Origin: Antedon mediterranea
Taxonomy: Eukaryota; Animalia; Echinodermata
NCBI RefSeq assembly: GCF_964355755.1
Contig: NC_092675.1
Coordinates: forward strand, 24,400,912-24,464,911
DNA length: 64,000 bases
Direction of reading: 5' to 3'
A model generated the notes under the pieces. It did not search any database. It was given only the letters and a program-made list of their open reading frames with translations, and was not told the origin of the DNA. Made by a program: the position numbers and the translations under genes. Of the stretch, positions 1-32,396 are shown one piece after another. Numbering within the stretch: position 1 is the first letter of the stretch; each line of letters starts with the position of its first letter.

Positions 1-3000
1 CGCTAAAACAAAACAGGTAAACAAACAATAGTAAATGTAATAGAAAATAATATCATCAATGAAAATACGGCATCAATACTTAATTTCTATCAATAATGGA
101 AGAATAACTTTGATTTGTTACCGAAACATATTATTTAAAACTTACGTTATGTTTGTAAAAATAACTTTTTCAAGACACTGGTCGTCAGCACAAGTTTGAA
201 TATGAACACAACCCATTACATACGGTGTAGTAAATATTTCTGGTAATTGTGTTGTTTGTTCCCGACATTGGAGAATAAGAGCAACTTCGCTACAAGTTCC
301 TAAAACACAATCACTGGTGGTCTCCGGAGTTACTGTTGCATTGGCAATTGATCCATCTTCACATAACGCAGAAACAGTAATTGATTCACCGACCGTAGCA
401 GCAACACATACAGTACCGTTAACATTAGTGGTATGCATTTCAATTATTCCTGATGACTTCTCCAACACGCTAAAACAAAACAGGTAAACAAACAATAGTA
501 AATTTAACAGAAAATAATATCATCAATGAACATACAGCCTCAATACTTCATTTCCATAAAATATGGAAGAATAACTTTGGTTTGTAACCGAAACATATTA
601 TTAAAAACTTACGTTATGTTTGAAAAAATAACTGGTTCAAGACACTGGTCGTCAGCACAAGTTTGAATATGAACACAACCCATTGCATACGGTGTAGTAA
701 ATATTTCTGGTAATTGTGTTGTTTGTTCCCGACATTGGAGAATAAGAGCAACTTCGCTACAAGTTCCTACTTGACAATCACCGGTGGTTTCCGGAGTGAC
801 TGTTGCATTGGCAATTGATCCGTCTTCACATAACACAGAAACAGTAATTGATTCACCGACCGTAGCAGCAACACATACAGTACCGTTAACATTAGTGGTA
901 TGCATTTCAATTATTCCTGATGACTCCAACACGCTAAAACAAAACAGGTAAACAAACAATAGTAAATTTAACAGAAAATAATATCATTAATGAACATACA
1001 GCCTCAATACTTAATTTCCATAAAATATGGGAGAATAACTTTGATTTGTAACCGAACATATTATTTAAAACTTACGTTATGTTTGTAAAAATAACTGGTT
1101 CAAGACATTGGTCATCACCACAAGTTTGAATATGAACACATCCCATTGCATACGGTGTAGTAAATGTTTCTGGTAATTGTGTTGTTTGTTCCCGACATTG
1201 GAGAATAAGAGCAACTTCGCTACAAGTTCCTACTTGACAATCACCGGTGGTTTCCGGAGTGACTGTTGCATTGGCAAATGATCCATCTTCACATAACGCA
1301 GAAACAGTAATTGATTCACCGACCGTAGCAGCAACACATACAGTACCGTTAACATTAGTGGTATGCATTTCAATTATTCCTGATGACTTCTCCAACACGC
1401 TAAAACAAAACCGGTAAACAAACAATAGTAAATTTAACAGAAAATAATATGATCAATGAACATACAGCCTCAATACTTAATTTCCATAAAATATGGGAGA
1501 ATAACTTTGATTTTTAACCAAACATAGTATTTAAAACTTACGTTATGTTTGTAAAAATAACTGGTTCAAGACATTGGTCATCACCACAAGTTTGAATATG
1601 AACACATCCCATTGCATACGGTGTAGTAAATGATTCTGGTAATTGTGTTGTTTGTTCCCGACATTGGAGAATAAGAGCAACTTCGCTACAAGTTCCTACA
1701 ACACAATCACCGATGGTTTCCGGAATGACTGTTGCATTAGCAATTGAGCCATCCTCACATAACGCAGAAATAGTAATTGATTCACCGACCGTAGCAGCAA
1801 CACATACAGTACCGTTAACATTAGTGGTATGCATTTCAATTATTCCTGATGACTTCTCCAACACGCTAAAACAAAACAGGTAAACAAACAATAGTAAATG
1901 TAATAGAAAATAATATCATCAATGAAAATACGGCATCAATACTTAATTTCTATCAATAATGGAAGAATAACTTTGATTTGTTACCGAAACATATTATTTA
2001 AAACTTACGTTATGTTTGTAAAAATAACTGGTTCAAGACACTGGTCGTCAGCACAAGTTTGAATATGAACACAACCCATTACATACGGTGTAGTAAATAT
2101 TTCTGGTAATTGTGTTGTTTGTTCCCGACATTGCAGAATAAGAGCAACTTCGCTACAAGTTCCTAAAACACAATCACTGGTGGTCTCCGGAGTTACTGTT
2201 GCATTGGCAATTGATCCATCTTCACATAACGCAGAAACAGTAATTGATTCACCGACCGTAGCAGCAACACATACAGTACCGTTAACATTAGTGGTATGCA
2301 TTTCAATTATTCCTGATGACTTCTCCAACACGCTAAAACAAAACAGGTAAACAAACAATAGTAAATTTAACAGAAAATAATATCATCAATGAACATACAG
2401 CCTCAATACTTCATTTCCATAAAATATGGAAGAATAACTTTGGTTTGTAACCGAAACATATTATTAAAAACTTACGTTATGTTTGAAAAAATAACTGGTT
2501 CAAGACACTGGTCGTCAGCACAAGTTTGAATATGAACACAACCCATTGCATACGGTGTAGTAAATATTTCTGGTAATTGTGTTGTTTGTTCCCGACATTG
2601 GAGAATAAGAGCAACTTCGCTACAAGTTCCTAAAACACAATCACTGGTGGTCTCCGGAGTTACTGTTGCATTGGCAATTGATCCATCTTCACATAACGCA
2701 GAAACAGTAATTGATTCACCGACCGTAGCAGCAACACATACAGTACCGTTAACATTAGTGGTATGCATTTCAATTATTCCTGATGACTCCAACACGCTAA
2801 AACAAAACAGGTAAACAAACAATAGTAAATTTAACAGAAAATAATATCATCAATGAACATACAGCCTCAATACTTAATTTCCATAAAATATGGGAGAATA
2901 ACTTTGATTTGTAACCAAACATATTATTTAAAACTTACGTTATGTTTGTAAAAATAACTGGTTCAAGACATTGGTCATCACCACAAGTTTGAATATGAAC

Positions 3001-6000
3001 ACATCCCATTGCATACGGTGTAGTAAATGTTTCTGGTAATTGTGTTGTTTGTTCCCGACATTGGAGAATAAGAGCAACTTTGCTACAAGTTCCTACTTGA
3101 CAATCACCGGTGGTTTCCGGAGTGACTGTTGCATTGGCAATTGATCCATCTTCACATAACGCAGAAACAGTAATTGATTCACCGATCGTAGCAGCAACAC
3201 ATACAGTACCGTTAACATTAGTGGTATGCATTTCAATTATTCCTGATGACTTCTCCAACACGCTAAAACAAAACAGGTAAACAAACAATAGTAAATTTAA
3301 CAGAAAATAATATCATCAATGAACATACAGCCTCAATACTTAATTTCCATAAAATATGGGAGAATAACTCTGATTTGTAACCAAACATATTATTTAAAAC
3401 TTACGTTATGTTTGTAAAAATAACTGGTTCAAGACATTGGTCATCACCACAAGTTTGAATATGAACACAACCCATTGCAAACGGTGTAGTAAATGTTTCT
3501 GGTAATTGTGTTGTTTGTTCCCGACATTGGAGAATAAGAGCAACTTCGCTACAAGTTCCTACTTGACAATCACCGGTGGTTTCCGGAGTGACTGTTGCAT
3601 TGGCAATTGATCCATCTTCACATAACGCAGAAACAGTAATTGATTCACCGACCGTAGCAGCAACACATACAGTACCGTTAACATTAGTGGTATGCATTTC
3701 AATTATTCCTGATGACTTCTCCAACACGCTAAAACAAAACAGGTAAACAAACAATAGTAAATGTAATAGAAAATAATATCATCAATGAAAATACGGCATC
3801 AATACTTAATTTCTATCAATAATGGAAGAATAACTTTGATTTGTTACCGAAACATATTATTTAAAACTTACGTTATGTTTGTAAAAATAACTTTTTCAAG
3901 ACACTGGTCGTCAGCACAAGTTTGAATATGAACACAACCCATTACATACGGTGTAGTAAATATTTCTGGTAATTGTGTTGTTTGTTCCCGACATTGGAGA
4001 ATAAGAGCAACTTCGCTACAAGTTCTTAAAACACAATCACTGGTGGTCTCCGGAGTTACTGTTGCATTGGCAATTGATCCATCTTCACATAACGCAGAAA
4101 CAGTAATTGATTCACCGACCGTAGCAGCAACACATACAGTACCGTTAACATTAGTGGTATGCATTTCAATTATTCCTGATGACTTCTCCAACACGCTAAA
4201 ACAAAACAGGTAAACAAACAATAGTAAATTTAACAGAAAATAATATCATCAATGAACATACAGCCTCAATACTTCATTTCCATAAAATATGGAAGAATAA
4301 CTTTGGTTTGTAACCGAAACATATTATTAAAAACTTACGTTATGTTTGAAAAAATAACTGGTTCAAGACACTGGTCGTCAGCACAAGTTTGAATATGAAC
4401 ACAACCCATTGCATACGGTGTAGTAAATGATTCTGGTAATTGTGTTGTTTGTTCCCGACATTGGAGAATAAGAGCAACTTCGCTACAAGTTCCTACAACA
4501 CAATCACCGATGGTTTCCGGAATGACTGTTGCATTAGCAATTGAGCCATCCTCACATAACGCAGAAATAGTAATTGATTCACCGACCGTAGCAGCAACAC
4601 ATACAGTACCGTTAACATTAGTGGTATGCATTTCAATTATTCCTGATGACTTCTCCAAAACGCTAAAACAAAACAGGTAAACAAACAATAGTAAATTTAA
4701 CAGAAAATAATATCATCAATGAACATACAGCCTCAATACTTCATTTCCATGAAATATGGAAGAATAACTTTGGTTTGTAACCGAAACATATTATTTAAAA
4801 CTTACGTTATGTTTGAAAAAATAACTGGTTGAAGACACTGGTTGTCAGCACAAGTTTGAATATGAACACAACCCATTGCATACGGTGTAGTAAATATTTC
4901 TGGTAATTGTGTTGTTTGTTCCCGACATTGGAGAATAAGAGCAACTTCGCTACAAGTTCCTAAAACACAATCACCGGTGGTTTCCGGAGTGACTGTTGCA
5001 TTGGCAATTGATCCGTCTTCACATAACGCAGAAACAGTAATTGATTTACCGACCGTAGCAGCAACACATACAGTACTGTTAACATTAGTGGTATGCATTT
5101 CAATTATTCCTGATGACTTCTCCAACACGCTAAAACAAAACAGGTAAACAAACAATAGTAAATTTAACAGAAAATAATATCATCAATGAACATACAGCCT
5201 CAATACTTAATTTCCATAAAATATGGGAGAATAACTTTGATTTGTAACCAAACATATTATTTAAAACTTACGTTATGTTTGTAAAAATAACTGGTTCAAG
5301 ACACTGGTCGTCAGCACAAGTTTGAATATGAACACAACCCATTGCATACGGTGTAGTAAATTTTTCTGGTAATTGTGTTGTTTGTTCCCGACATTGGAGA
5401 ATAAGAGCAACTTCGCTACAAGTTCCTATTTGACAATCACCGGTAGTTTCCGGAGTGACTGTTGCATTGGCAATTGATCCATCTTCACATAACGCAGAAA
5501 CAGTAATTGATTCACCGACCGTAGCAGCAACACATACAGTACCGTTAACATTAGTGGTATGCATTTCAATTATTCCTGATGACTTCTCCCACACGCTAAA
5601 ACAAAACAGGTAAACAAACAATAGTAAATGTAATAGAAAATAATATCATCAATGAACATACAGCCTCAATACTTAATTTCCATAAAATATAGGAGAATAA
5701 CTTTGATTTGTAACCAAACATATTATTTAAAACTTACGTTATGTTTGTAAAAATAACTGGTTCAAGACACTGGTCATCACCACAAGTTTGAATATGAACA
5801 CATCCCATTGCATACGGTGTAGTAAATGATTCTGGTAATTGTGTTGTTTGTTCCCGACATTGGAGAACAAGAGCAACTTCGCTACAAGTTCCTACCACAC
5901 AATAACCGGTGGTTTCCGGAATGACTGTTGCATTAGCAATTGATCCATCCTCACATAACGCAGAAACAGTAATTGATTCACCGACCGTAGCAGCAACACA

Positions 6001-9000
6001 TAAAGTACCGTTAACATTAGTGGTATGCATTTCAATTATTCCTGATGACTTCTCCAACACGCTAAAACAAAACAGGTACACAAACAATAGTATATGTAAT
6101 AGAAAATAATAACATCAATAAAAATACGGCATCAATACTTAATTTCTATCAATTATGGAAGAATAACTTTGATTTGTTACCGAAACATATTATTTAAAAC
6201 TTACGTTATGTTTGTATAAATAACTGGTTCAAGACACTGGTCATCACCACAAGTTTGAATATGAACACATCCCATTGCATACGGTGTAGTAAATGTTTCT
6301 GGTAATTGTGTTGTTTGTTCCCGACATTGGAGAATAAGAGCAACTTCGCTACAAGTTCCTACTTGACAATCAGCGGTAGTTTCCGGAGTGACTGTTGCAT
6401 TGGCAATTGATCCATCTTCACATAACGCAGAAACAGTAATTGATTCACCGACCGTAGCAGCAACACATACAGTACCGTTAACATTAGTGGTATGCATTTC
6501 AATTATTCCTGATGACTTCTCCCACACGCTAAAACAAAACAGGTAAACAAACAATAGTAAATGTAATAGAAAATAATATCATCAATGAACATACAGCCTC
6601 AATACTTAATTTCCATAAAATATAGGAGAATAACTTTGATTTGTAACCAAACATATTATTTAAAACTTACGTTATGTTTGTAAAAATAACTGGTTCAAGA
6701 CACTGGTCATCACCACAAGTTTGAATATGAACACATCCCATTGCATACGGTGTAGTAAATGATTCTGGTAATTGTGTTGTTTGTTCCCGACATTGGAGAA
6801 TAAGAGCAACTTCGCTACAAGTTCCTACTTGACAATCACCGGTGGTTTCCGGAATGACTGTTGCATTAGCAATTGATCCATCCTCACATAACGCAGAAAC
6901 AGTAATTGATTCACCGACCGTAGCAGCAACACATACAGTACCGTTAACATTAGTGGTATGCATTTCAATTATTCCTGATGACATCTCCAACACGCTAAAA
7001 CAAAACAGGTAAACAAACAATAGTATATGTAATAGAAAATAATATCATCAATAAAAATACGGCATCAATACTTAATTTCTATCAATTATGGAAGAATAAC
7101 TTTGATTTGTTACCGAAACATATTATTTAAAACTTACGTTATGTTTGTATAAATAACTGGTTCAAGACACTGGTCGTCAGCACAAGTTTGAATATGAACA
7201 CAACCCATTGCATACGGTGTAGTAAATTTTTCTGGTAATTGTGTTGTTTGTTCCCGACATTGGAGAATAAGAGCAACTTCGCTACAAGTTCCTATTTGAC
7301 AATCACCGGTAGTTTCCGGAGTTACTGTTGCATTGGCAATTGATCCATCTTCACATAACGCAGAAACAGTAATTGATTCACCGACCGTAGCAGCAACACA
7401 TACAGTACCGTTAACATTAGTGGTATGCATTTCAATTATTCCTGATGCCTTCTCCCACACGCTAAAACAAAACAGGTAAACAAACAATAGTAAATGTAAT
7501 AGAAAATAATATCATCAATGAACATACAGCCTCAATACTTAATTTCCATAAAATATAGGAGAATAACTTTGATTTGTAACCAAACATATTATTTAAAACT
7601 TACGTTATGTTTGTAAAAATAACTGGTTCAAGACACTGGTCATCACCACAAGTTTGAATATGAACACATCCCATTGCATACGGTGTGGTAAATGATTCTG
7701 GTAATTGTGTTGTTTGTTCCCGACATTGGAGAATAAGAGCAACTTCGCTACAAGTTCCTACCACACAATAACCGGTGGTTTCCGGAATGACTGTTGCATT
7801 AGCAATTGATCCATCCTCACATAACGCAGAAACAGTAATTGATTCACCGACCGTAGCAGCAACACATACAGTACCGTTAACATTAGTGGTATGCATTTCA
7901 ATTATTCCTGATGACTTCTCGAACACGCTAAAACAAAACAGGTAAACAAACAATAGTAAATGTAATAGAAAATAATATCATCAATAAAAATACGGCATCA
8001 ATACTTAATTTCTATCAATTATGGAAGAATAACTTTGATTTGTTACCGAAACATATTATTTAAAACTTACGTTATGTTTGTATAAATAACTGGTTCAAGA
8101 CACTGGTCGTCAGCACAAGTTTGAATATGAACACAACCCATTGCATACGGTGTAGTAAATTTTTCTGGTAATTGTGTTGTTTGTTCCCGACATTGGAGAA
8201 TAAGAGCAACTTCGCTACAAGTTCCTATTTGACAATCACCGGTAGTTTCTGGAGTGACTGTTGCATTGGCAATTGATCCATCTTCACATAACGCAGAAAC
8301 AGTAATTGATTCACCGACCGTAGCAGCAACACATACAGTACCGTTAACATTAGTGGTATGCATTTCAATTATTCCTGATGACTTCTCCCACACGCTAAAC
8401 AAAACAGGTAAACAAACAATAGTAAATGTAATAGAAAATAATATCATCAATGAACATACAGCCTCAATACTTAATTTCCATAAAATATAGGAGAATAACT
8501 TTGATTTGTAACCAAACATATTATTTAAAACTTACGTTATGTTTGTAAAAATAACTGGTTCAAGACACTGGTCATCACCACAAGTTTGAATATGAACACA
8601 TCCCATTGCATACGGTGTAGTAAATGATTCTGGTAATTGTGTTGTTTGTTCCCGACATTGGAGAACAAGAGCAACTTCGCTACAAGTTCCTACCACACAA
8701 TAACCGGTGGTTTCCGGAATGACTGTTGCATTAGCAATTGATCCATACTCACATAACGCAGAAACAGTAATTGATTCACCGACCGTAGCAGCAACACATA
8801 AAGTACCGTTAACATTAGTGGTATGCATTTCAATTATTCCTGATGACTTCTCCAACACGCTAAAACAAAACAGGTAAACAAACAATAGTATATGTAATAG
8901 AAAATAATATCATCAATAAAAATACGGCATCAATACTTAATTTCTATCAATTATGGAAGAATAAATTTGATTTGTTACCGAAACATATTATTTAAAACTT

Positions 9001-12000
9001 ACGTTATGTTTGTATAAATAACTGGTTCAAGACACTGGTCGTCAGCACAAGTTTGAATATGAACACAACCCATTGCATACGGTGTAGTAAATTTTTCTGG
9101 TAATTGTGTTGTTTGTTCCCGACATTGGAGAATAAGAGCAACTTCGCTACAGGTTCCTACTTGACAATCACCGGTGGTTTCCGGAGTGACTGTTGCATTG
9201 GCAATTGATCCATCTTCACATAACGCAGAAACAGTAATTGATTCACCGACCGTAGCAGCAACACATACAGTACCGTTAACATTAGTGGTATGCAATTCAA
9301 TAATTCCTGATGAATTCTCCAACACGCTAAAACAAAACAGGTAAACAAACAAAAGTAAATTTAACAGAAAATAATATCATCAATGAACATACAGCCTCAA
9401 TACTTAATTTCCATAAAATATGGGAGAATAACTTTGGTTTGTAACCGAAACATATTATTTAAAACTTACGTTATGTTTGTAAAAATAACTGGTTCAAGAC
9501 ACTGGTCGTCAGCACAAGTTTGAATATGAACACAACCCATTGCATACGGTGTAGTAAATATTTCTGGTAATTGTGTTGTTTGTTCCCGACATTGGAGAAT
9601 AAGAGCAACTTCGCTACAAGTTCCTACTTGACAATCACCGGTGGTTTCCGGAGTGACTGTTGCATTGGCAATTGATCCATCTTCACATAACGCAGAAACA
9701 GTAATTGATTCACCGATCGTAGCAGCAACACATACAGTACCGTTAACATAAGTGGTATGCATTTCAATTATTCCTGATGACTTCTCCAACACGCTAAAAC
9801 AAAACAGGTAAACAAACAATAGTAAATTTAACAGAAAATAATATCATCAATGAACATACAGCCTCAATACTTAATTTCCATAAAATATGGGAGAATAACT
9901 CTGATTTGTAACCAAACATATTATTTAAAACTTACGTTATGTTTGTAAAAATAACTGGTTCAAGACATTGGTCATCACCACAAGTTTGAATATGAACACA
10001 ACCCATTGCATACGGTGTAGTAAATGTTTCTGGTAATTGTGTTGTTTGTTCCCGACATTGGAGAACAAGAGCAACTTCGCTACAAGTTCCTACTTGACAA
10101 TCACCGGTGGTTTCCAGAGTGACTGTTGCATTGGCAATTGATCCATCTTCACATAACGCAGAAACAGTAATTGAATCACCGATCGTAGCAGCAACACATA
10201 CAGTACCGTTAACATTAGTGGTATGCATTTCAATTATTCCTGATGACTTCTCCAACACGCTAAAACAAAAGAGGTAAACAAACAATAGTAAATTTAACAG
10301 AAAATAATATCATCAATGAACATACAGCCTCAATACTTAATTTCCATAAAATATGGGAGAATAACTCTCATTTGTAACCAAACATATTATTTAAAACTTA
10401 CGTTATGTTTGTAAAAATAACTGGTTCAAGACATTGGTCATCACCACAAGTTTGAATATGAACACAACCCATTGCATACGGTGTAGTAAATGTTTCTGGT
10501 AATTGTGTTGTTTGTTCCCGACATTGGAGAATAAGAGCAACTTCGCTACAAGTTCCTACTTGACAATCACCGGTGGTTTCCGGAGTGACTGTTGCATTGG
10601 CAATTGATCCATCTTCACATAACGCAGAAACAATAATTGATTCACCGACCGTAGCAGCAACACATACAGTACCGTTAACATTAGTGGTATGCATTTCAAT
10701 TATTCCTGATGACTTCTCCAACACGCTAAAACAAAACAGGTAAACAAACAATAGTAAATGTAATAGAAAATAATATCATCAATGAAAATACGGCATCAAT
10801 ACTTAATTTCTATCAATTATGGAAGAATAACTTTGATTTGTTACCGAAACATATTATTTAAAACTTACGTTATGTTTGTAAAAATAACTGGTTCAAGACA
10901 CTGGTCGTCAGCACAAGTTTGAATATGAACACAACCCATTACATACGGTGTAGTAAATATTTCTGGTAATTGTGTTGTTTGTTCCCGACATTGGAGAATA
11001 AGAGCAACTTCGCTACAAGTTCCTAAAACACAATCACTGGTGGTTTCCGGAATGACTGTTGCATTAGCAATTGAGCCATCCTCACATAACGCCGAAATAG
11101 TAATTGATTCACCGACCGTAGCAGCAACACATACAGTACCGTTAACATTAGTGGTATGCATTTCAATTATTCCTGATGACATCTCCAACACGCTAAAACA
11201 AAACAGGTAAACAAACAATAGTAAATGTAATAGAAAATAATATCATCAATGAACATACAGCCTCAATACTTAATTTCCATAAAATATGGGAGAATAACTT
11301 TGATTTGTAACCAAACATATTATTTAAAACTTACGTTATGTTTGTAAAAATAACTGGTTCAAGACATTGGTCATCACCACAAGTTTGAATATGAACACAT
11401 CCCATTGCATACGGTGTAGTAAATGATTCTGGTAATTGTGTTGTTTGTTCCCGACATTGGAGAATAAGAGCAACTTCGCTACAAGTTCCTACCACACAAT
11501 CACCGGTGGTTTCCGGAATGACTGTTGCATTAGCAATTGATCCATCCTCACATAACGCAGAAACAGTAATTGATTCACCGACCGTAGCAGCAACACATAC
11601 AGTACCGTTAACATTAGTGGTATGCATTTCAATTATTCCTGATGACTTCTCCAACACGCTAAAACAAAACAGGTAAACAAACAATAGTAAATTTAACAGA
11701 AAATAATATCATCAATGAACATACAGCCTCAATACTTAATTTCCATAAAATATGGGAGAATAACTCTGATTTGTAACCAAACATATTATTTAAAACTTAC
11801 GTTATGTTTGTAAAAATAACTGGTTCAAGACATTGGTCATCACCACAAGTTTGAATATGAACACAACCCATTGCATACGGTGTAGTAAATGTTTCTGGTA
11901 ATTGTGTTGTTTGTTCCCGACATTGGAGAATAAGAGCAACTTCGCTACAAGTTCCTACTTGACAATCACCGGTGGTTTCCAGAGTGACTGTTGCATTGGC

Positions 12001-21000: not shown

Positions 21001-24000
21001 CAGGTAAACAAACAATAGTAAATTTAACAGAAAATAATATCATCAATGAACATACAGCCTCAATACTTCATTTCCATGAAATATGGAAGAATAACTTTGG
21101 TTTGTAACCGAAACATATTATTTAAAACTTACGTTATGTTTGAAAAAATAACTGGTTCAAGACACTGGTCGTCAGCACAAGTTTGAATATGAACACAACC
21201 CATTGCATACGGTGTAGTAAATGATTCTGGTAATTGTGTTGTTTGTTCCCGACATTGGAGAATAAGAGCAACTTCGCTACAAGTTCCTACCACACAATCA
21301 CCGGTGGTTTCCGGAATGACTGTTGCATTAGCAATTGAGCCATCCTCACATAACGCAGAAATAGTAATTGATTCACCGACCGTAGCAGCAACACATACAG
21401 TACCGTTAACATTAGTGGTATGCATTTCAATTATTCCTGATGACATCTCCAACACGCTAAAACAAAACAGGTAAACAAACAATAGTAAATGTAATAGAAA
21501 ATAATATAATCAATGAACATACAGCCTCAATACTTAATTTCCATAAAATATGGGAGAATAACTTTGATTTGTAACCAAACATATTATTTAAAACTTACGT
21601 TATGTTTTTAAAAATAACTGGTTCAAGACATTGGTCATCACCACAAGTTTGAATATGAACACATCCCATTGCATACGGTGTAGTAAATGATTCTGGTAAT
21701 TGTGTTGTTTGTTCCCGACATTGGAGAATAAGAGCAACTTCGCTACAAGTTCCTACCACACAATCACCGGTGGTTTCCGGAATGACTGTTGCATTAGCAA
21801 TTGATCCATCCTCACATAACGCAGAAACAGTAATTGATTCACCGACCGTAGCAGCAACACATACAGTACCGTTAACATTAGTGGTGTGCATTTCAATTAT
21901 TCCTGATGACATCTCCAACACGCTAAAACAAAACAGGTAAACAAACAATAGTATATGTAATAGAAAATAATATCATCAATGAAAATACGGCATCAATACT
22001 TAATTTCTATCAATTATGGAAGAATAACTTTAATTTGTTACCGAAACATATTATTTAAAACTTACGTTATGTTTTTAAAAATAACTGGTTCAAGACACTG
22101 GTCGTCAGCACAAGTTTGAATATGAACACAACCCATTGCATACGGTGTAGTAAACGTTTCTGGTAATTGTGTTGTTTGTTCCCGACATTGGAGAATAAGA
22201 GCAACTTCGCTACAAGTTCCTACTTGACAATCACCGGTGGTTTCCGGAGTGACTGTTGCATTGGCAATTGATCCATCTTCACATAACGCAGAAACAGTAA
22301 TTGATTCACCGACCGTAGCAGCAACACATACAGTACCGTTAACATTAGTGGTATGCATTTCAATTATTCCTGATGACTTCTCCAACACGCTAAAACAAAA
22401 CAGGTAAACAAACAATAGTAAATTTAACAGAAAATAATATCATCAATGAACATACAGCCTCAATACTTAATTTCCATAAAATATGGGAGAATAACTTTGA
22501 TTAGTAACCGAACATATTATTTAAAACTTACGTTATGTTTGTAAAAATAACTGGTTCAAGACACTGGTCGTCAGCACAAGTTTGAATATGAACACAACCC
22601 ATTGCATACGGAGTAGTAAATGTTTCTGGTAATTGTGTTGTTTGTTCCCGACATTGGAGAATAAGAGCAACTTCGCTACAAGTTCCTACAACACAATCAC
22701 CGGTGGTTTCCGGAGTGAGTGTTGCATTGGCAATTGATCCATCTTCACATAACGCAGAAACAGTTAGAGATTCACCGACCGTAGCAGCAACACATACTGT
22801 ACTGTTTTCATTAGTGGTGTACTTTTCAATTCTACCTGATGAAATCTCCAGCACACTAAAATATAGGTTACAAAATAAACATTTTTAATTGCATTTTTTT
22901 CAAATACAACTCCATTATTATAAATATACAATAGTGAGAAAGAGTAATCTTTTTTTTTTATTAATAATTCGATTATTTGAAACTTACCTTATGTTTCTGA
23001 ACATAACTGGTTCAAGGCATTTTTCGTCACCACAAGTTTTTATACGAACACAACCCATTTCATATGGTGTAGTAAATGATTCTGGTAATTGTGTTGTTTG
23101 TACACGACATTGCAGGATAAGAGCAACACTGCTACAAGTTCCTACTTGACAATTACCAGTGCTTTCCGGAGTTACTGTTGCATTTGCCATTGATCCATCT
23201 TCACATAACGCAGAAACAGTTACGGATTCACCGACCGTAGCAGCAACACATACTGTACCATTTTCATTAGTGGTGTACTTTTCAATTCTACCTGATGAAA
23301 TGTCCAGCACACTAAAAAATAGGTTACAAAATAAACATTTTTAATTGCATTTTTTTCAAATACAACTTCATTATTATAAATATACAATAGTGAGAAAGAG
23401 TAATCTTTTTTTTAATTAATAATTCGATTATTTGAAACTTACCTTATGTTTCTGAACATAACTGGCTCAAGGCACTTTTCGTCACCACAAGTTTTTATAC
23501 GAACACAACCCATTTCATATGGTGTAGTAAATGATTCTGGTAATTGTGTTGTTTGTAAACGACATTGGAGGATAAGAGCAACACTGCTACAAGTTCCTAC
23601 TTGACAATCACCAGTGCTTTCCGGAGTTACAGTTGCATTTGCCACTGATCCATCTTCACATAACGCAAAAACAGTTACGGATTCACCGACCGTAGCAGCA
23701 ACACATACTGTACCGTTTTCATTACTAGTGTACTTTTCAATTCTACCTGATGAAATCTCCAGCACACTAAAATATAGGTTACAAAATAAACATTTTTAAT
23801 TGCATTTTCTTAAATACAACTCCATTATTATAAATATACAATATTGAGAAAGAGTAAATTTTTTTTTAATTAATAATTCGATTATTTGAAACTTACCTTA
23901 TGTTTCTGAACATAACTAGCTCAAGGCACTTTTCGTCACCACAAGTTTTTATACGAACACAACCCATTTCATATGGTGTAGTAAATGATTGTGGTAATTG

Positions 24001-25122
24001 TGTGGTTTGTACCCGACATTGGAGGATAAGAGCAACACTGCTACAAGTTCCTACTTGACAATCACCAGTGCTTTCTGGAGTTATAGTTGCATTTGCCATT
24101 GATCTATCTTCACATAACGCAGAAACAGTTAGAGATTCACCGACAGTAGCAGCAACACATACTGTACCGTTTTCATTAGTGGTGTATTTTTCGATTCTAC
24201 CTGATGAATTTTCCAGCACACTAAATATAGGTAACAAAATAAACATTTTTAATTGCATTTTTTTCAAATACAACTCTATTATTATAAATATATAATAATA
24301 AGAGTAAAAATTGTTTTATTAATAATTCGATTATTTGAAACTTACCTTATGTTTCTGAACATAACTGGTTCAAGGCATTTTTCGTCACCACAAGTTTTTA
24401 TACGAACACAACCCATTGCATACGGTGTAGTAAATGATTCTGGTAATTGTGTTGTTTGTACACGACATTGGAGGATAAGAGCAACACTGCTACAAGTTCC
24501 TACTTGACAATCACCAGTGCTTTCCGGAGTTACAGTTGCATTTGCCATTGATCCATCTTCACATAACGCAGAAACAGTTACGGATTCATCGACCGTAGCA
24601 GCAACACATACTGTACCGTTTTCATTAGTGGTGTACTTTTGAATTCTACCTGATGAAATCTCCAGTACACTGAAATGTAGGTTACAGAATAATCACTTTT
24701 AATAGCATTTTTTCAAATACAACTCCATTATTATAAATATATAATAGTGAGAAAGAGTAATTTTTTTTTAATTAATAATTCGATTATTTTAAACTTACCT
24801 TATGTTTCTGAACATAACTGGTTCAAGGCACTTTTCGTCACCACAAGTTTTTATACGAACACAACCCATTTCATATGGTGTAGTAAATGATTCTGGTAAT
24901 TGTGTTGTTTGTACACGACATTGGAGGATAAGAGCAACACTGCTACAAGTTCCTACTTGACAATTACCAGTGCTTTCCGGAGTTACAGTTGCATTTGCCA
25001 TTGATCCATCTTCACATAACGCAGAAACAGTTACGGATTCACCGACCGTAGCAGCAACACATACAGTACCGTTATCATTAGTGGTGTACATTTCAATTTT
25101 TCCAGATGAAATATCCAGCACA
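1..25122 (-). repeat. Tandem exon-plus-intron array, unit about 466 bp (about 450-456 bp at the right end), 54 complete units plus the start of a 55th at positions 1-2
   Basis: Each unit has an acceptor such as ttttgttttag|CGTGTTGGAG (AG at 470-471, exon 469-146) and a donor AAC ATA AC|GTAAGT (plus strand 'acttac', 140-145). Each exon encodes 8 invariant Cys and usually the sequons NGT, NAT and NI(T/S). Confidence 0.95.
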
Positions 25123-28100
25123 CTAACACAGGTTAAATAACAAGAATATTTGTATTGTACATTGTTTAAACAATAAGTCTATCTTGATTATATTATTCTA
25201 ATGAAATCTCCAACAAACTAAACAGAACTTGTAACACATTATTAAAGTATTAAAACGTAAAACAATCTAATCTGCATAGTATTTAATGTGCAATGAAATT
25301 TAGTTGTTCTGTCGAAAACCAAAAATTGTTATGAGAAACTCTCCACATGTTAAATGTGTAATGGTGGTGATTGCGCTAAAACTAATAATGGGTGTATTAA
25401 ACTTACTTGACATCGTAATCGGGGACATAAGTTAGACATTTGTCATCACTACAAGTCATTATACGAACACACCCCGATTGGGTACAGTTAAATTCATCAC
25501 TTCCGTCACTACAGTCCATTTTTCCATTACATAATGTATCATATCCAATACATTCACCACTTCCACACATAAAACCATTACATGTAAGACATTTCATAAG
25601 AAAAAGAGCTTTAGAACATTCTGCATCTTGGTTGGTTGTATTCAATTGTATAGTAATGGTTTCATTATTGATGGTGCAACGGGTTGTCACATTTACTTCA
25701 GAGTTTGTCTTGACAGTGAAAACTACTTTTCCACTCGCATCAGTGAAATTTGAGTATCCATATGAATAACTATGTCCGACAATTCTGGAGAAAAAAAAAA
25801 CAACCGAAAATTAATTATGGTTATATGTCTGCTGGATATATGGCTATGACAAAACGTTCGAACCTATGACTATGGCAACAATGTGAAAAAAAGAAATACA
25901 CAGTCTTAGTATATGACCGGCATTGAATCATCCAACTAACTTTTAATCATGTGTGTATGGTTATTTTTATTCCATTGACATTAATATAAAGAAGCCGATA
26001 CAAGAGGTGGTTTATTTTATAGATAGGGTTCTTTTTAGTCAAATATAATTGTAGTTTACGTCTATAATATTACTGTTGAATGCGTATAAAAAACAAAATG
26101 GTAAATTTTATACGGCGGACACTGCAGGTTGACAGGTTGCTCGAATGTGATCAGTCAAAGCCTCATATCGCGCATGTGGTTTCTCACTGTTTAACAAAAC
26201 TAAACGCCCAAACCGAAATTGCAGTATTCGCATATAAAGACATTGCACACTCAATAACGTAATAATATTTCACTAAAACATTGATTGAATATTATAACCT
26301 ACAATCCTCAAAGACAAAAACCTACTTAGGTATGTTAATTACAATCATAATAAATACTTACTCAACGTAATGGTCAGGAACAGGTTGCGTACAATCATAA
26401 TCTAAACACACAGATACATTAAGACAAGTTTGCTCATCAGAAACAATTCCTCCCTGCCACAGTGACAAATGTGGGAGTGATGCTACCCAGTACAGCTCAC
26501 CAGAAAACACCTCAATATGTCCATAGTCTTGTGGTTTCCATGCACCTAATATGTATTACAGTAAAACCTGTTTTAGTGTACTATAATTTGTTGTTTATTT
26601 ATTGTTCTTTGTATGTTTCATTACATGACAATAAAATGACAATATAATTTACTCTGAATCTTCATTATCATAAATAATAAGTGTTGTTAGTTTATCAATA
26701 ATAGGATAATAAAATGTTAAATATTTTTCCCCCCTGTACACTAAATTTCAGCTTAATATTTAATTTAACAAAGTAAAAAACACACATAATGACAAGTCCT
26801 TTTTTGTTATGTTAAAATACCTTTTCCACTTTAGCGAATGACAATATATTATCAAGTCGGCGCTGGATGAGGTCGTGCAGTATATTGAGTTACTGTGTTT
26901 AGTGTATCTAAGACTATATATAAATTTACGTAAAGGCAAAATTCGGTAAATCGCGTGTTATTTCTAAAATATTTACTCGATGGTATATAAAGTTGGTTAG
27001 AATCTCGGTACTGATTTTAACCACCTGATTTAACCCTTTTTACTAATTAAATTTAGTTAGATAATTAGTTATTGACAATTAAAACGAATTTAGGTTCAAC
27101 GATTTGCCCCCAATAGGGGTGTTTTCTGATCGTGGTATACACTGTCTAATGGATATCCTCATGAAAAAATACCTGCACACAATAATACGAGGATACTTCG
27201 CATTTTCCTATCTCCTCCTACGATAATTGTTTTCAATAGCTGAAAACCGGTTGAACAGCTCGAGTACAGTATCATAATGTTGAAGACAGACCGAGAATCT
27301 CGGTACTGATTTTAACCTGATGTAACCCTGTTTACTAATTCAATTTAGTTAGATAATAAGTTATTGACAATTAAACGAATTTAGGTTCAACGATTTGAAC
27401 AGCTCGAGTACAGTATCATAATGTTGAAGACAGGCCGATTTTCTTTAAAAAATAATATTTTGATAGATTTAATATACGTTTATACAAATGTATTGATTTG
27501 CAATGAATGGAACATTCCCAATTATTTGGTTTAACCATGCTTGCATACATCCATAGTTTAACACAAGTAAGTAAATTTATGGGCCCTTGGAGAATAAACA
27601 TAAACAGTATTGTAATGCTATACAATACTATAGGTATTAACCACGTTTGATCATCATAGTCATATATACTTTATTGTCCATTTAAAAAACAGAAATGTGA
27701 TTTGAAAACTGGCAAAATACAAAAATATAAAATACAATTTACAAAAACACACACAAAAAGTTAAGAGGCTAAAAATTGTTAAAATTAGATAAAAATTATT
27801 ATTATTTAATTATATTATATGATTTATTATTATATTGAACTAACGATGATTTAAAGTTTATATAAAAGCATTAAAACTATAAAAATAAACAAAAGCGGTT
27901 ACATTTTACCTTTGTACTCTGGAGTTATATAAGTGTATAGCATTAGGTACAAACGAGCACCTAAACCGTTTTGTTTTGGTATTAAGTGCACGTAGTCTTA
28001 TCGCCATTTAAATCGCATTTAATTTCTTATTGTGTGTGTTTGTACCGCTAGATATAATATAAACAAATATACTAATAAACTTTATTACTGTGAGTGTGGG

Positions 28101-31100
28101 TAGCCCCTACTTTTAGATTATAAACACATAACAATAATTATAATAATTTATTACTGACAGTTGCTTCTCATCTTTTGTATAAATTAATAATTACAAAAAA
28201 ATATAAACGTCGTAGTGGTGTATCGTTACACGTACTTTACTATTTCAATCGACTATGACAGTGACAATTTTAACATAGTTATTAAATCGGAAATGTTTTA
28301 CTCTATTTAGTGGTATATTATTTATAAGCCTATAAAAAAATATGTCGTTACTTATAAAAATAAATATAAATAATAAAGAAATATAAAGAATAATTTATTA
28401 TAAAGAATATATTAAAAAAGTGTTCCTCTTTGTATCCCTCATCCCTAACCCTCAACAATAATGTTAGATAGAAAACAAAAATTGGGTTTGTTAAATAAAT
28501 CCAAATCAAACATTTGGACTCATTTTGTGACAAGTTTCTCTTTTGGAAGTAATTTCCAGGGTGCTAATTTTGGTTGACTACATAAATTATTGTGTCTATT
28601 TATTTGTTTATGTAAACGACAATGTTTTATAGTCATGCGTTACGTACATTTGAAATCGCCAGTTCTTTTACGCTGAAATTACTATGTAGGCCTATTCGAG
28701 AACCATCTGTGGACATGATCTAGTAATACATAATTGAAGCTAAAGTAATTTTGGTAAATAATTATTTCTAGATTGTACATGAATTGGATAAAGTATAATA
28801 TACGGAAATCAGCAAGCCATGACGTTTACTTTCATTATTCATGGTAGTTGTAATATTGTGATAAGTGGTGTCACTTTAATGGGCCATCATTAGTAAAACT
28901 ACCTTATGTAAGTCAGGATTCAGAACCTTTTTTCTGCGAAACCAACATACATAACCATACATGTATAGCGTTCTGATTTTTTTACTGATAATGATACTCG
29001 TCGTGAAGGTAGCGATAAATCATCGCTTGTTTGGGTTGTTCCATACCTTTTCTGGCATTCTACAATTTGTTTCTTGGCTCGTTTTACTTCAAAATCCGAG
29101 TCGATGGCAATTTGCGTTATTTTTAGTTCATATATTTCGGCCTTAACTATGGATAAGTTATAGGCCTATGCTCTGTTTCTATAACTTGGTTCACGTAAAG
29201 ATTTTATTTGTTCTTCTTTGTTTATTATACATCTTGTCCATGATTTTAGTTTTGAGTCGGGTGGGGGGGGGGGGAGTGGTAGTTTAATTAAATTTAAATT
29301 AATTAAGATTTCAGAGATTTAATTTCCGTTCTGAGATTTATATTTTCAGTTCCAATAGAGAGTTTCAGATTTTTTAATTATCGCAAATTTTCAACACCAC
29401 TCACGTTAGACAGAACGCTTACAGTTTAAAAGTAGCGATTGTGAACAAAACAACGATTACGTAACATGAACAAAAGGCACGAGTGGAGAAAGCACTGAAC
29501 TCAGTAGACCGTGAAGAATGTTAGAAATCTCTCAGTGAAAAAAAAACCAATATATTTGTTAGCCCAGAAAATAAACGCTAATTACAGGGCAAAGGTACAG
29601 TCAGAGTCGGTACAGTTCGTTATAGTGGTGGTCTATTTTAAGTGACTTAGCTTAGAAAAACAAAGGTTGTTTCTACTCTCCAGTATTTGAAAATCATGCC
29701 TTTATTTCCCCATCAAGCTAAGATAAAGTTATTCCTGAATTTACCTGTGCAGTTGTGGTTACCTAATTGATAGATTTGAGCACAAAATTGAGATATCAGT
29801 TCAAATGTACAGTGTACTTGTGTTAGACTGCCTTCGGTATTAACGGCATCAAGGGGGAAGACAGGATGTACCATGACAAGCTAACTTTGGTTAGGTAGGC
29901 CTAAGTAAAATAATTGTAATTAATAAATGAAACATTTGCTTACCGGTTAACTTCTCGTAATAAAAGGATTGGACGACATCACCTTGTTTTGCTGAACCAG
30001 GTAGTATAGGAACAGAAACAATAATTGATTCATTTAAATTAACCTCCTGACCAGTGTTTTTGTCTATCAACGTCAGATCAAAACGGGTTATCGGCTGAAT
30101 GAGTTTACCTGTAGAGAAATTGTACAGTTAGATAAAACATACAAATCAAATAGATGACAGCGTATGTTTTTAGGGCAATATAAAATAAAAAAGATGACAG
30201 TTTTTATATTTCGTTACAAAGTCTTCATTTTGTCCTCTTTCGAGTTCCCCGTGTTGTCCTGTTTTTTTTTATATTTCAATGTTATGGGCTGCCTCTCACG
30301 AGCTTTGCTTTTCTCATTTACAGCTGAGTGCACTGGGAGTTGTCGGGAATTGAACCCGGGTCTGTGTGGTAGGGTGGCCAGTTCCTTTCCACGCCGCCTT
30401 TTTCTCCCTAGTATTTTCAACTAGGTACTCATTTACAGCTGAGTGGACTGGGAGTTGTCGGGAATTGAACCCGGGTCTATCTGTATGACAGTCAAGTGTC
30501 CTAACCACTCGGCTATCCAACTCCAACTCTTTAAATAATAAAATACAAATACAAACAAAATAACATTACAATATACTAATAGTGACGGATACAAACACTA
30601 ATAAATAATAAATTCTCTTATATTATGAGGAAATAGCAAAACAGAGTGATACATGTTATGATTACAATATCTATATGAAGAAATAGTAAAACGAACATAT
30701 TATTACAAGTGATACAGGACAGTATTATATGGACAAATAGTTAACTATTTAATTATTATAATTTATTATTATTAAATTATTCTCTCCATTCAATCACACA
30801 AGCCCACAAGAGAACCACGTTTTATCACGGTATCTAAATATTCCCACAAAAACAAGTTAGTAAGCTTTCTTCGAGAGTTATATAAATCATATATTATGTA
30901 TATAATTATATAATTTTTACAATATATTGTAATAATATGTATTTCAACAAAATGATTAACACAAGCTCTTACAGTTGTAGTTTGATTGTTAATGCCGATT
31001 AAAGAATTTCGTTTACGTGGGACTCAAACGCTATGCTCTGATTCTACTGTATTCCAAAGAAGAAGAAACTAAATATATTCAATGAAATCTAAAAGCGTAG

Positions 31101-32396
31101 CCAATGCCAAATCGAATCTATTATCCTTAAAGTTTAACAGTCAAGGTAAATCTAATGAATCTAATAGATTAGTCTACACCTACTTAAAAAAAAATAAAAA
31201 CCTTTCATTTTAGGTATACAATAGTTGTTTAAAGGTATTTAAACAGTTCGACTCACCTTTCGGATCAACAGACGTAGGTATGTTTAATAACTGGGTTTCA
31301 TCACCAATGTTAGTAAAACAAACTGAAATGTCCACTGTATCGTTACCAAGGTTATCTAAACTTCCTGAAAATGTAAGGTAGTTTATAATTTATTCAAGAT
31401 GAATTTTGCAAACTTTGTTATATATTTTGTTATATATTATAAATAACAAACTAAAACAAAACAGAACATATTTTCGAAATGTATGGTCCTACAAATAATA
31501 CAATAATGTTCAGTGCATTCATCTTCTGAAACCAATAACTTTCTTTTATGAATCATCATAACAAACTTTATGAACCTAATTAAAAATTAATCATGTGAGC
31601 ATGATAGTAATTATATATATAATAATATAGGCCTACATTAATTATATAATAATTTTTTTTAATCAAAGATTCATTAATTCTCTCATTTATCTTCTCATTT
31701 ATCTTTGAACGCAAGATGCTATTACTTTAACTAATATCGCTAATGATAATAAATATTACTGATTAATATACTGGGGCAAATTCATAATTATGTGGTATGG
31801 ACGCGAGATTAATATGGACCTCTAGTTGGCCAACAAATTACAGAACCAGTACAATGTCTGGAAGTATGTAAAGTGAAAATGTATTAACTGACCAGGATTG
31901 ATATGAAAATTTGCAGTAGGGGTGGAGCTGGGAGTACTTAGCCGTGTTTGGAGGGAGAGAGAAGAACATGTTTAACCAGGAAAAGATATCATTTGTGAGC
32001 GACACTTGAAAACTCTATATCACCTTTTTAAGTATGCAAACTTACCAGGTGTAAATAAAATTGACATTTGTCCTCCCGACGGCATATCAATTTCCACCGA
32101 CGTACTCAAAGTAGTATCTACTTTTATTGTTGAGACAATCGTTAGTGGTATCAGCTCAAATTCAAAGGTTGTGTACGATGAAGTATGTTCTGGAGTTTGC
32201 CAAATTTTACTTGCTTCCAAAAAACCATGTACGTCTATGGTTATTGTGCCACTTGAATTCCCTGGTAAAAGAAAAACGTTTTCCTGTCCATCGTAGATTA
32301 TAATCAGACCACCACTTGTATGTTGAACAACTGTTACAGACGGGTTGTTTAGGTCAGCCCAACGTATGTTCGTTGGCCTTAAATAGACATAAGAAT
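1..32396 (-). CDS. Giant multi-exon extracellular protein gene: FAM171/CILP-like N-terminal region, diverged beta-sandwich repeat, LDLa, then at least 54 tandem 108-aa Cys-rich exon repeats (first exon not found; 3' end outside window)
   Basis: Phase-compatible GT-AG exon chain read by hand: 32396-32046 (phase 1-1), 31364-31257 (1-1), 30108-29944 (1-1), 26545-26362 (1-2), 25784-25407 (2-2), then 54 phase 2-2 exons from 25122-24799 down to 469-146. No stop codon seen in the spliced frame; about 18.7 kb of CDS in the window. Confidence 0.85.
25407..25784 (-). CDS. Exon of giant gene: diverged repeat domain, LDL-receptor class A module (25484-25582), and start of the first repeat
   Basis: Acceptor tttttctccag| and donor |GTAAGT; 378 nt. 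Translates IVGHSYSYGYSNFTDASGKVVF...CNGFMCGSGECIGYDTLCNGKMDCSDGSDEFNC-TQSGCVRIMTCSDDKCL. The six Cys and DCSDGSDE match the LDLa signature. Confidence 0.9.
26362..26545 (-). CDS. Exon of giant gene (end of FAM171-like domain)
   Basis: tag|GT GCA TGG ... GTT GA|GTAAGT; 184 nt; GAWKPQDYGHIEVFSGELYWVASLPHLSLWQGGIVSDEQTCLNVSVCLDYDCTQPVPDHYVE. Confidence 0.85.
26912..27600 (+). mobile_element. Dispersed non-coding repeat, copy 1, with an internal duplication of about 100 bp
   Basis: Highly similar to about 36575-37140 (tatataaatttacgtaa.ggcaaaattcg ... gaatggaacat). The block starting gaatctcggtactgatttt occurs at about 27000 and again at about 27295. Confidence 0.75.
27650..28015 (-). mobile_element. 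3' fragment of a non-LTR retrotransposon (Rex1/CR1-group-like)
   Basis: Minus strand near 27920-28005 reads IRLRALNTKTKRFRCSFVPNAIHLYN, the TxRFxxSFxPxAIxLxN type of LINE ORF2 C-terminus, followed by an AT-rich tail. Confidence 0.55.
29944..30108 (-). CDS. Exon of giant gene (FAM171-like domain)
   Basis: tttctctacag| ... |GTAAGC; 165 nt; KLIQPITRFDLTLIDKNTGQEVNLNESIIVSVPILPGSAKQGDVVQSFYYEKLTG. Confidence 0.85.
30313..30525 (-). mobile_element. tRNA-derived SINE (Deu/Nin-domain-like) with partial internal duplication
   Basis: A box TAGCCGAGTGG, GTC in the anticodon-like loop, B box GGTTCAATTCC, then ccactcagctgtaaatgagtacctag and aaggcggcgtggaaaggaactggccaccctacc. The B box to ctgtaaatgag segment is repeated at about 30313-30365. 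Confidence 0.75.
31257..31364 (-). CDS. Exon of giant gene
   Basis: attttcag| ... |GTGAGT; 108 nt; SLDNLGNDTVDISVCFTNIGDETQLLNIPTSVDPK; phase 1-1 fits both neighbours. Confidence 0.8.
32046..32396 (-). CDS. Most 5' identified exon of giant gene
   Basis: attttgcag| ... |GTAAGT; 351 nt open; SYVYLRPTNIRWADLNNPSVTVV...TITIDVHGFLEASKIWQTPEHTSSYTTFEFELIP...ILFTP. Confidence 0.8.

What the first reader, a model, noticed from the sequence alone, without database searches (positions are those of the whole stretch)
1..32396. One giant gene built from at least 54 tandem, frame-symmetric, near-identical exons encoding an 8-Cys module
Seen: every unit carries a polypyrimidine-AG acceptor and a GT donor that cut out a 324-nt phase 2-2 exon. 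All 54 are stop-free and splice in frame to unique upstream exons. The exonic indels I found are whole codons (units 613-933 and 2476-2796 lack Lys), while introns tolerate 1-nt indels (for example near 8396). Full inclusion gives over 6,200 aa, 432 Cys in the repeats and about three N-glycosylation sequons per repeat, and the array is still open at the window edge. Inference: a very long beaded extracellular glycoprotein (adhesive, mucus or matrix component, or a stalked receptor). I do not recognise the architecture FAM171-like + LDLa + (repeat)n from any characterised protein.
Basis: partly seen in the sequence, partly recalled or inferred. Interest (0 to 1): 0.9.

Follow-up and report, generated by a model that had tools for sequence, protein, structure and literature searches.

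The report
Giant beaded feather-star surface protein
A feather-star gene lines up at least 54 near-identical exons in one open reading frame behind a likely secretion signal, and would make a giant beaded glycoprotein whose tip domain is predicted to cut itself and whose far end is likely anchored in the cell membrane, as predicted for a related gene in the same animal.

Summary
The N-terminus equals RefSeq XP_071954229.1 of Antedon mediterranea, which stops after six repeats. One RNA run splices the unique exons and one repeat-to-repeat junction. The repeat is not a new fold: it is predicted as a transthyretin/CnaB-type sandwich (pLDDT 93.5, Z about 10), amplified from the module after the LDLa. 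The FAM171-like head superposes on ZU5 and GAIN domains and carries an H-L-S motif in register with CD97's cleavage site. This motif is in 52 of 56 relatives and absent from human FAM171A1/A2. A paralog ends in mucin stalk, SEA-EGF and a transmembrane helix. Best reading: a membrane-tethered, mucin-like stalk with a self-cleaved cap. The C-terminus, cleavage and full-length transcript are unshown. New variant of known kinds.

The parts
33859..33928 (-). Exon 1 coding part: ATG and likely signal peptide (aa 1-23); 5' UTR reaches at least 34044
   Evidence: identical to the RefSeq N-terminus; RNA contig piece 33859-34044
32046..32396 (-). Exon 2 (aa 24-140): first beta domain (likely TTR-like, FAM171 domain 1 type) and start of the ZU5/GAIN-like domain
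31257..31364 (-). Exon 3 (aa 141-176), ZU5/GAIN-like domain
29944..30108 (-). Exon 4 (aa 177-231), ZU5/GAIN-like domain (FAM171-N match)
26362..26545 (-). Exon 5 (aa 232-292): end of the ZU5/GAIN-like domain, start of module 0
26457..26471 (-). H257-L-S259-L-W261, predicted autoproteolysis site (cut L258/S259)
25407..25784 (-). Exon 6 (aa 293-418): rest of module 0, LDLa, first ~21 residues of repeat module 1
25484..25582 (-). Single LDLa domain (aa 361-393) with the D-C-x-D-x-S-D-E motif
22988..25122 (-). Repeat units 1-5 (subfamily A; introns 125-132 nt)
22532..22855 (-). Repeat unit 6, chimera: 5' part subfamily A, 3' part subfamily B
146..22389 (-). Repeat units 7-54 (subfamily B; introns 141-143 nt; exons about 96% alike)
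22390..22531 (-). 142-nt intron skipped by an RNA contig (repeat-to-repeat junction)
   Evidence: table 5
1..145 (-). Intron 54 and first two bases of a 55th repeat exon: array open at the window edge

Best explanation
This is one spliced Antedon gene that would encode a giant, likely membrane-tethered, mucin-like surface glycoprotein: a signal peptide, a FAM171-type head predicted to cut itself at H-L/S, and at least 55 predicted transthyretin-like modules strung as a stalk. Mechanism: (1, shown) exons splice in one frame, and the array was multiplied and homogenised by recombination of whole exon+intron units. (2, predicted) Each 91-residue module is a 7-strand sandwich with four disulfides and three N-glycans, joined by 17-residue Thr/Pro-rich linkers; each unit is strongly acidic, giving a hydrated, protease-resistant rod of roughly 0.3-0.5 micrometre for 54 units (my estimate from typical domain size). 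(3, inferred) In the secretory pathway Ser259 attacks the Leu258 bond, as in GAIN and PIDD ZU5 domains; the ~26 kDa cap (aa 21-258) stays bound non-covalently on the last strand. (4, inferred from the paralog) SEA-EGF domains and one transmembrane helix beyond the window anchor the base. The stalk would hold the cap and the LDLa above the glycocalyx as a binding tip that can be shed under pull or on ligand binding: a surface-coat, barrier or reversible-adhesion role.
For: Gene: 54 of 54 exons in frame; first 1060 of 1069 aa of RefSeq XP_071954229.1 identical. RNA-guess run X1 has a 1435-nt contig joining exons 1-2 and 5-6 (a 274-nt middle, not listed, fits exons 3+4 = 273 nt) and a GT..AG joint skipping the 142-nt repeat intron at depth 716, seen in 1 of 4 runs and in 0 of the 3 genomic-looking runs. 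Selection; the junction keeps an N-x-S/T sequon in 52 of 53 joins. Recombination: four-gamete incompatibility rises from 7% to 41% with distance (0 of 2000 permutations). Module: a profile without the repeats finds them at E 1e-11; AF2 pLDDT 93.5; Z 10.1, rmsd 2.3, 81 aligned to the TTR domain of carboxypeptidase D, and Z 10.7 to pilin CnaB. Head: Z 9.9/rmsd 3.4/146 aligned to CD97 GAIN, Z 9.8/3.5/129 to ankyrin ZU5, Z 9.2 to BAI3 GAIN; the range end 268 to 540 in 9mqr puts S259 on S531 if the last strand is ungapped, and S531 is CD97's cleavage residue (PMC12519206, passage). H-[FLM]-[ST]-x-W is in 52 of 56 head domains, the window's included, although its head is on a long branch. PIDD cleaves at HF/S after its ZU5 domains (PMC3210808, passages). 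Paralog XP_071959542.1 shares module-LDLa-module (36% over 260 aa), then a 50% S/T/P stalk, two SEA-EGF and a hydrophobic helix at 995-1013; the repeat groups with the paralog's post-LDLa module (99/93).
Against: The C-terminus is outside the window; no transmembrane helix in 6,248 aa (best 19-mer 1.72). The closest head relatives in other echinoderms and amphioxus end in a Sushi domain and look secreted. The exon 6 to repeat 1 joint was not among the rows shown (125 joints not shown), and the RNA contig runs 63 nt into the intron after exon 6, where a stop follows at once. The repeat joint has only 30 letters on its short side and is a collapse of many units; X1 also has intronic contigs at depth 4-7. 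An HLS motif is not enough for cleavage: BAI2 has one and stays uncleaved (PMC13062082, abstract). Z near 10 shows a fold, not a function; S259/S531 is read from range ends, not from a residue alignment. AU tests did not reject other groupings of the modules (p 0.09 and 0.15). Synonymous excess within units 7-54 is marginal (25 against 18.4, p 0.054).
Confidence: 0.5

Rival explanations
1. Same giant beaded protein, but secreted (no membrane anchor): a mucus, cuticle, egg-coat or larval-adhesive component that polymerises or is cross-linked through its head.
For: Signal peptide and no TM in 6,248 aa; EGF..FAM171-N..Sushi relatives in urchins, holothurians, brittle star, crinoid and amphioxus lack a TM; one unpaired Cys156 in the head.
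Against: The only relative sharing module-LDLa-module ends in SEA-EGF-TM.
Confidence: 0.25
2. The head is a non-cleaving FAM171-like binding domain; H-L-S is kept for folding only, and the protein is an ordinary stalked receptor or adhesin.
For: Human FAM171A1/A2 have Q-L-G-Y-W at this place and purified ectodomain masses match the whole chain (bioRxiv 10.1101/2025.09.18.675241, passage); BAI2 keeps HLS uncleaved; 4 of 56 relatives lack the motif.
Against: His plus Ser/Thr, exactly the catalytic pair, is kept in 52 of 56 heads from sponge to bacteria at the GPS position.
Confidence: 0.15
3. The array is a cassette pool: transcripts use a few, variable repeat exons (skipping or intronic stops), giving many short isoforms rather than one giant chain.
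For: All exons are phase-symmetric; 53 of 54 donors read through into a stop; RefSeq splits the locus into at least three short models; the RNA contig enters intron 6.
Against: Repeat-to-repeat splicing exists, and repeat contigs are 73-83 times deeper than the unique-exon contig (716 and 812 against 9.8; a hint only, as contig depth is no copy number and 3' bias is possible). Units are 96% alike, so choice would add little diversity.
Confidence: 0.07
4. Non-coding satellite or assembly over-expansion of a short repeat.
For: Units 26/30 and 27/31 are identical; 6% of shuffles give as long an ORF.
Against: 52 of 54 exons are distinct; no Cys loss or stop; spliced joint; homologous domain in other animals and bacteria; genomic runs show summed repeat depth far above single copy.
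Confidence: 0.03

Closest known systems
FAM171A1/A2/B (astroprincin family)
   Same: Head of carboxypeptidase-regulatory-like domain plus ZU5-like domain; a profile of the window's head and 46 relatives hits human FAM171A2 and A1 at E 5e-28 and 6e-26 (structure paper sections read).
   Different: FAM171 goes straight into a TM helix and has Q-L-G-Y-W; here H-L-S-L-W is followed by module 0, LDLa and at least 54 repeats.
GAIN/GPS (adhesion GPCRs such as CD97) and ZU5 (PIDD, ankyrin, UNC5) autoproteolytic domains
   Same: Fold Z 9-10 and H-x-S at the start of the last strand.
   Different: The domain sits at the distal N-terminal tip, thousands of residues from any membrane; no 7TM or death domain seen; cleavage untested.
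SEA-EGF transmembrane mucins (MUC1/3/12/13/17 type; family features recalled) and the Antedon paralog XP_071959542.1
   Same: Long glycosylated, acidic, repeat-built stalk; the paralog has a PTS tract, two SEA (each with G-S-I-I), EGF and TM.
   Different: The stalk here is folded disulfide-rich modules with short Thr/Pro linkers (39% S/T/P), not a PTS tract; SEA/TM not seen in the window.
Homogenised exon-intron arrays: LPA KIV-2, spider MaSp2, tenascin-X
   Same: Whole exon+intron units multiplied and homogenised; KIV-2 5.6-kb units at 1-40 copies (search listing and abstract starts); MaSp2 introns 97.6% alike (PMC9779670, passages).
   Different: One 467-bp unit, at least 54 copies, a folded 8-Cys domain cut across the exon boundary, two subfamilies with unrelated introns.
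Bacterial CnaB/pilin/SdrD B-repeat stalks and CarboxypepD_reg surface lipoproteins
   Same: Same module fold; bacterial proteins share the whole head-plus-module cassette and HFS motif.
   Different: Animal, spliced, disulfide-stabilised, N-glycosylated; trees give no sign of recent transfer.

Membership tests
FAM171 | Ectodomain of CarboxypepD-like domain 1 plus ZU5-like domain 2 | tested here: met
   Family profile hits FAM171A1/A2; PF10577 E 1.6e-5 but 24.8 bits under the 31.2 cut-off; domain 2 fold shown, domain 1 less sure (pLDDT 60-87)
FAM171 | Type I TM helix directly after domain 2 | tested here: not met
   Domain 2 is followed by about 6,000 extracellular residues; best hydropathy 1.72
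FAM171 | Homotrimeric ectodomain | not testable with these tools
   Needs SEC-MALS or AUC on the expressed head
ZU5/GAIN autoproteolytic superfamily | ZU5/GAIN-B beta-sandwich | tested here: met
   Z 9.9/rmsd 3.4/146 (CD97), Z 9.8/3.5/129 (ankyrin ZU5), pLDDT 85-97 over aa 105-270
ZU5/GAIN autoproteolytic superfamily | H-x-S/T before the last strand | tested here: met
   H257-L-S259; 52 of 56 heads; register with CD97 S531 from range ends
ZU5/GAIN autoproteolytic superfamily | Actual self-cleavage (and the helper Phe that stacks on the His) | not testable with these tools
   No coordinates or biochemistry; the motif can be silent
Adhesion GPCRs | GAIN domain directly before a 7TM | tested here: not met
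   The domain is N-terminal; no TM follows within 6,000 aa
SEA-EGF transmembrane mucins | Long PTS tandem-repeat domain | tested here: not met
   Repeats are folded modules; only the 17-aa linkers are 39% S/T/P
SEA-EGF transmembrane mucins | SEA, EGF and TM at the C-terminus | not testable with these tools
   Outside the window, no genome held; present in the paralog
LDL-receptor family | LDLa clusters with EGF and YWTD propellers | tested here: not met
   One LDLa, no EGF or YWTD in the N-terminal 1069 aa or the repeats
Transthyretin-like / CarboxypepD_reg / CnaB fold (module) | Seven-strand prealbumin-type sandwich | tested here: met
   Seven strands, pLDDT 93.5; Z 10.1-10.7; 21 of 36 aligned modules match PF13620, the repeat itself does not
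CILP (resemblance recalled from memory) | CILP Pfam domains | tested here: inconclusive
   None listed (one search showed 25 of 77 families)
Concertedly evolving exon-intron arrays | Introns homogenised with exons; recombination among units | tested here: met
   Core exon p 0.040, intron p 0.050; four-gamete test; chimeric unit 6

The most novel reading that the evidence does not exclude
An inverted GPS design: a self-cleaving ZU5/GAIN-type cap held at the tip of a half-micrometre, membrane-anchored stalk of transthyretin-like modules, working as a force-release fuse or sheddable decoy on the crinoid surface. It is the extreme member of an overlooked family of extracellular H-F/L-S/T autoproteolytic FAM171-like proteins, from bacteria and sponges to echinoderms and amphioxus, from which vertebrate FAM171 receptors arose by losing the catalytic motif.
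Probability: 0.3. Interest if true: 0.8.

Novelty: new variant of a known kind. Interest (0 to 1): 0.6.

Why it matters
It adds an undescribed architecture (FAM171-type head, LDLa, at least 54 TTR-like modules) of at least 660 kDa, which RefSeq breaks into three or more fragments. It is a clean case of concerted evolution of an exon-intron unit, with a copy number above the 40 quoted for LPA KIV-2. The wider point is testable with a small construct: the FAM171-type domain 2 carries a GPS-like catalytic motif in most invertebrate and bacterial relatives found here but not in human FAM171A1/A2, linking a disease-associated orphan receptor family to ZU5/GAIN autoproteolysis. No paper in the library joined FAM171 with autoproteolysis, GAIN or ZU5 at three of four terms; ZU5 autoproteolysis in bacterial surface proteins and a sponge expansion was already proposed (PMC3482391, passages).

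Tried and rejected
No whole genome is held, so the C-terminus could not be read. Word-based homolog searches with the repeat (2 hits among 90 candidates, both this locus) and the head (self only among 3272) found nothing else; the profile search added bacterial CarboxypepD_reg proteins but no other animal repeat array. The repeat alone matched no PDB sequence. Pfam and NCBIfam hits summed over repeats (EKR, Lamp2, PLCC, RNase P and others) were rejected as artefacts of repetition. One search listed no holder on record as RNA; X1 is a guess, supported only by its spliced joints. Absent X1 cover over most of repeats 1-5 is not used as evidence. A second read-laying aimed at the exon 6/repeat 1 joint gave no answer. 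Summed contig depths in the genomic runs differed several-fold between runs and were not used as a copy number. Foldseek on the 1069-aa model was dominated by poor multi-domain matches, and repeats in that model had low pLDDT; the single-module model was used instead. Trimer prediction for the head: no answer, score 0.00, alignment not used, no evidence either way. ESM Atlas hits for the repeat were under 0.9, leads only. A bacterial promoter scan and ARAGORN were uninformative. Recent horizontal transfer: the head is a long branch of unsure place, and in the smaller module tree the Antedon modules were not resolved from bacterial ones; not supported, not excluded. Earlier scan notes: none. 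Paper searches for a described crinoid protein found none; the echinoderm ECM review PMC10381214 has no mention of FAM171 or transthyretin (passages). Supplements were not read; those of the FAM171 preprint and Additional File 1 of PMC3482391 may bear on whether this motif was noted before.
Full report
OBSERVATION. The array is real: period 467, 54 copies, 94% matches at 1-25130. On the minus strand 54 of 54 exons lie between AG and GT, 52 of 324 nt and 2 of 321 nt, all phase 2-2, stop-free, with 8 Cys. Six unique exons (33928-33859, 32396-32046, 31364-31257, 30108-29944, 26545-26362, 25784-25407) join them into one open frame of 6,248 aa, 659 kDa, pI about 4, with 432 Cys and 165 sequons in the repeats. 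A 55th acceptor at the edge shows that the array goes on.

SOURCE AND ANNOTATION. The first 1060 of 1069 residues of RefSeq XP_071954229.1 (Antedon mediterranea, a feather star) equal this frame; that model stops after six repeats. XP_071953125.1 is a patchwork of units 23-39, and XP_071954228.1 matches only in part and probably lies beyond the edge. All are named 'uncharacterized'.

IS IT CODING AND SPLICED? ORF length alone is weak (126 of 2000 shuffles). Selection is clearer: among 88 distinct alleles in units 7-54 none removes a Cys or makes a stop, against 4.6 and 4.1 expected (0 of 20,000); pN/pS is 0.58 in units 7-54, 0.30 in units 1-5 and 0.42 between them; exons of the two subfamilies stay 81-87% alike while their introns are about 50-55%. 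The synonymous excess inside units 7-54 is marginal (p 0.054). In one search (4 of 5 listed runs laid) run X1, only guessed to be RNA, has a 1435-nt contig joining exon 1 to 2 and exon 5 to 6, and a joint skipping exactly the 142-nt repeat intron at depth 716, absent from the three genomic-looking runs. Against: the joint has 30 letters on its short side and collapses many units; the exon 6 to repeat 1 joint was not among the rows shown; the long contig ends 63 nt inside the next intron. The link of head and array rests on phase, on module 1 beginning inside exon 6, on the RefSeq model and on the paralog.

HOW THE ARRAY AROSE. Exons (p 0.040) and introns (p 0.050) are equally homogenised in units 7-54. 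Incompatible site pairs rise from 7% under 30 nt to 41% over 200 nt (0 of 2000 permutations); unit 6 is an A/B chimera, and units 26/30 and 27/31 are identical. This is unequal crossing-over and conversion of whole exon+intron units, known from spider MaSp2 (PMC9779670, passages), LPA KIV-2 (search listing) and described as rare in metazoan domain repeats (PMC5100051, passages).

THE MODULE. In domain register the unit is a 91-residue module plus a 17-residue linker (39% S/T/P), with sequons at three fixed places in 52 of 54 units and 13 acidic against 2 basic residues in a typical unit. A profile built from module 0 and relatives, without the repeats, finds them at E about 1e-11. AlphaFold on a 36-row alignment gives seven strands at pLDDT 93.5; matches are transthyretin-like, CnaB and pilin domains (Z 10.1, rmsd 2.3, 81 aligned to carboxypeptidase D; Z 10.7 to BcpA). 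Cys co-occurrence in the 36 rows suggests C4-C6, C2-C3, C1-C7 and, by elimination, C5-C8 (inferred, rows are related).

THE HEAD. A search of 1.84 billion proteins with aa 24-358 gave 57 hits: echinoderm and amphioxus EGF..FAM171-N..Sushi proteins, a sponge protein and many bacterial-type surface proteins (20 of 57 looked up by name; 20 scanned). 37 of 47 aligned rows match PF10577, and their profile hits human FAM171A2 and A1, whose ectodomain is a carboxypeptidase-regulatory-like domain plus a ZU5-like domain (bioRxiv 10.1101/2025.09.18.675241, abstract, two sections and passages). The model of aa 105-270 (pLDDT 85-97) superposes on GAIN domains of CD97, BAI3, BAI2 and CELSR1 and on ankyrin ZU5 (Z 8.6-9.9). 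At the start of its last strand is H257-L-S259-L-W. H-[FLM]-[ST]-x-W is present in 52 of the 56 sequences that have the domain (2 of 58 lack it), and the alignment end in 9mqr places S259 on S531, CD97's cleavage residue (PMC12519206, passage). PIDD cleaves at HF/S after ZU5 with the fragments staying together (PMC3210808, passages). Human FAM171A1/A2 have Q-L-G-Y-W here. Caveat: BAI2 has HLS and is not cleaved (PMC13062082, abstract).

THE MISSING END. The top hit, Antedon XP_071959542.1 on another chromosome, shares module-LDLa-module (36% over 260 aa), then has a 50% S/T/P stalk, two SEA-EGF pairs and a TM helix (hydropathy 3.66 at 995). The window's repeat groups with the paralog's post-LDLa module (99/93), though AU tests do not reject alternatives. 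The paralog repeats the module before the LDLa, this gene the one after it. A like C-terminus here is an inference (about 0.6).

MECHANISM. Shown: gene structure, splicing of unique exons and of one repeat joint, selection, homogenisation. Predicted: module fold, head fold. Inferred: self-cleavage at L258/S259 leaving a 26-kDa cap bound to the tip; a glycosylated acidic stalk of about 0.3-0.5 micrometre (my estimate); a membrane anchor; a barrier or reversible-adhesion role with a sheddable tip. Rivals: secreted matrix or adhesive protein (0.25), non-cleaving head (0.15), cassette pool (0.07), satellite or mis-assembly (0.03).

NOVELTY. Every part has a known fold and the gene layout is a known kind; the combination, the scale and the N-terminal GPS-like site in a FAM171-type head were not found in print. 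It is not a FAM171, adhesion GPCR, LDL receptor or classical mucin by the features tested. Verdict: new variant of a known kind, interest 0.6.

Noticed in passing
window 46286-49628 (-): Multi-exon CFAP53 orthologue: one exon hits human CFAP53 at E 1e-12.
   Followed up: partly
window about 36200-45400 (+): Multi-exon coiled-coil gene, head-to-head with the giant gene about 2 kb away; not identified; CCDC178-like is a guess from memory.
   Followed up: partly
window 59056-60260 (-): Small Ly6/uPAR-like gene (weak Toxin_TOLIP match, E 0.007) with a Gly/Ala-rich spacer and a hydrophobic, GPI-like end.
   Followed up: no
window 26700-28900 and 30313-30530: Very high-copy elements in introns of the giant gene (summed depth 1e4-1e5 in genomic runs); the second looks like a tRNA-derived SINE with a duplicated 56-nt part (label is my reading).
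   Followed up: no
window 62261-62812 (-): Broken ORF pieces that look like the 3' end of a LINE reverse transcriptase (recalled pattern; no Pfam hit).
   Followed up: no
window 51051-51293 and 51617-51782: Short tandem arrays of 15-16 nt and 31 nt upstream of CFAP53.
   Followed up: no
P0004 (XP_071959542.1): The paralog model starts mid-module, so it is probably also a fragment of a longer repeat gene; both SEA domains carry F-S-Q-G-S-I-I, like the recalled SEA self-cleavage motif.
   Followed up: partly
P0006-P0011, P0013, P0014, P0031: An uncharacterised deuterostome family EGF(n)..FAM171-N..TTR module..Sushi in urchins, sea cucumbers, brittle star, sea star, crinoid and amphioxus; most keep H-F/L-S/T-W-W, the amphioxus protein does not.
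   Followed up: partly
window 31257-31364 (exon 3): Cys156 is the only Cys in the first 270 residues, so it is unpaired or bonds to another chain.
   Followed up: no
repeat junctions, 146-25122: One N-glycosylation sequon is completed across the splice junction and is kept as N-I-S in subfamily A and N-I-T in subfamily B.
   Followed up: yes
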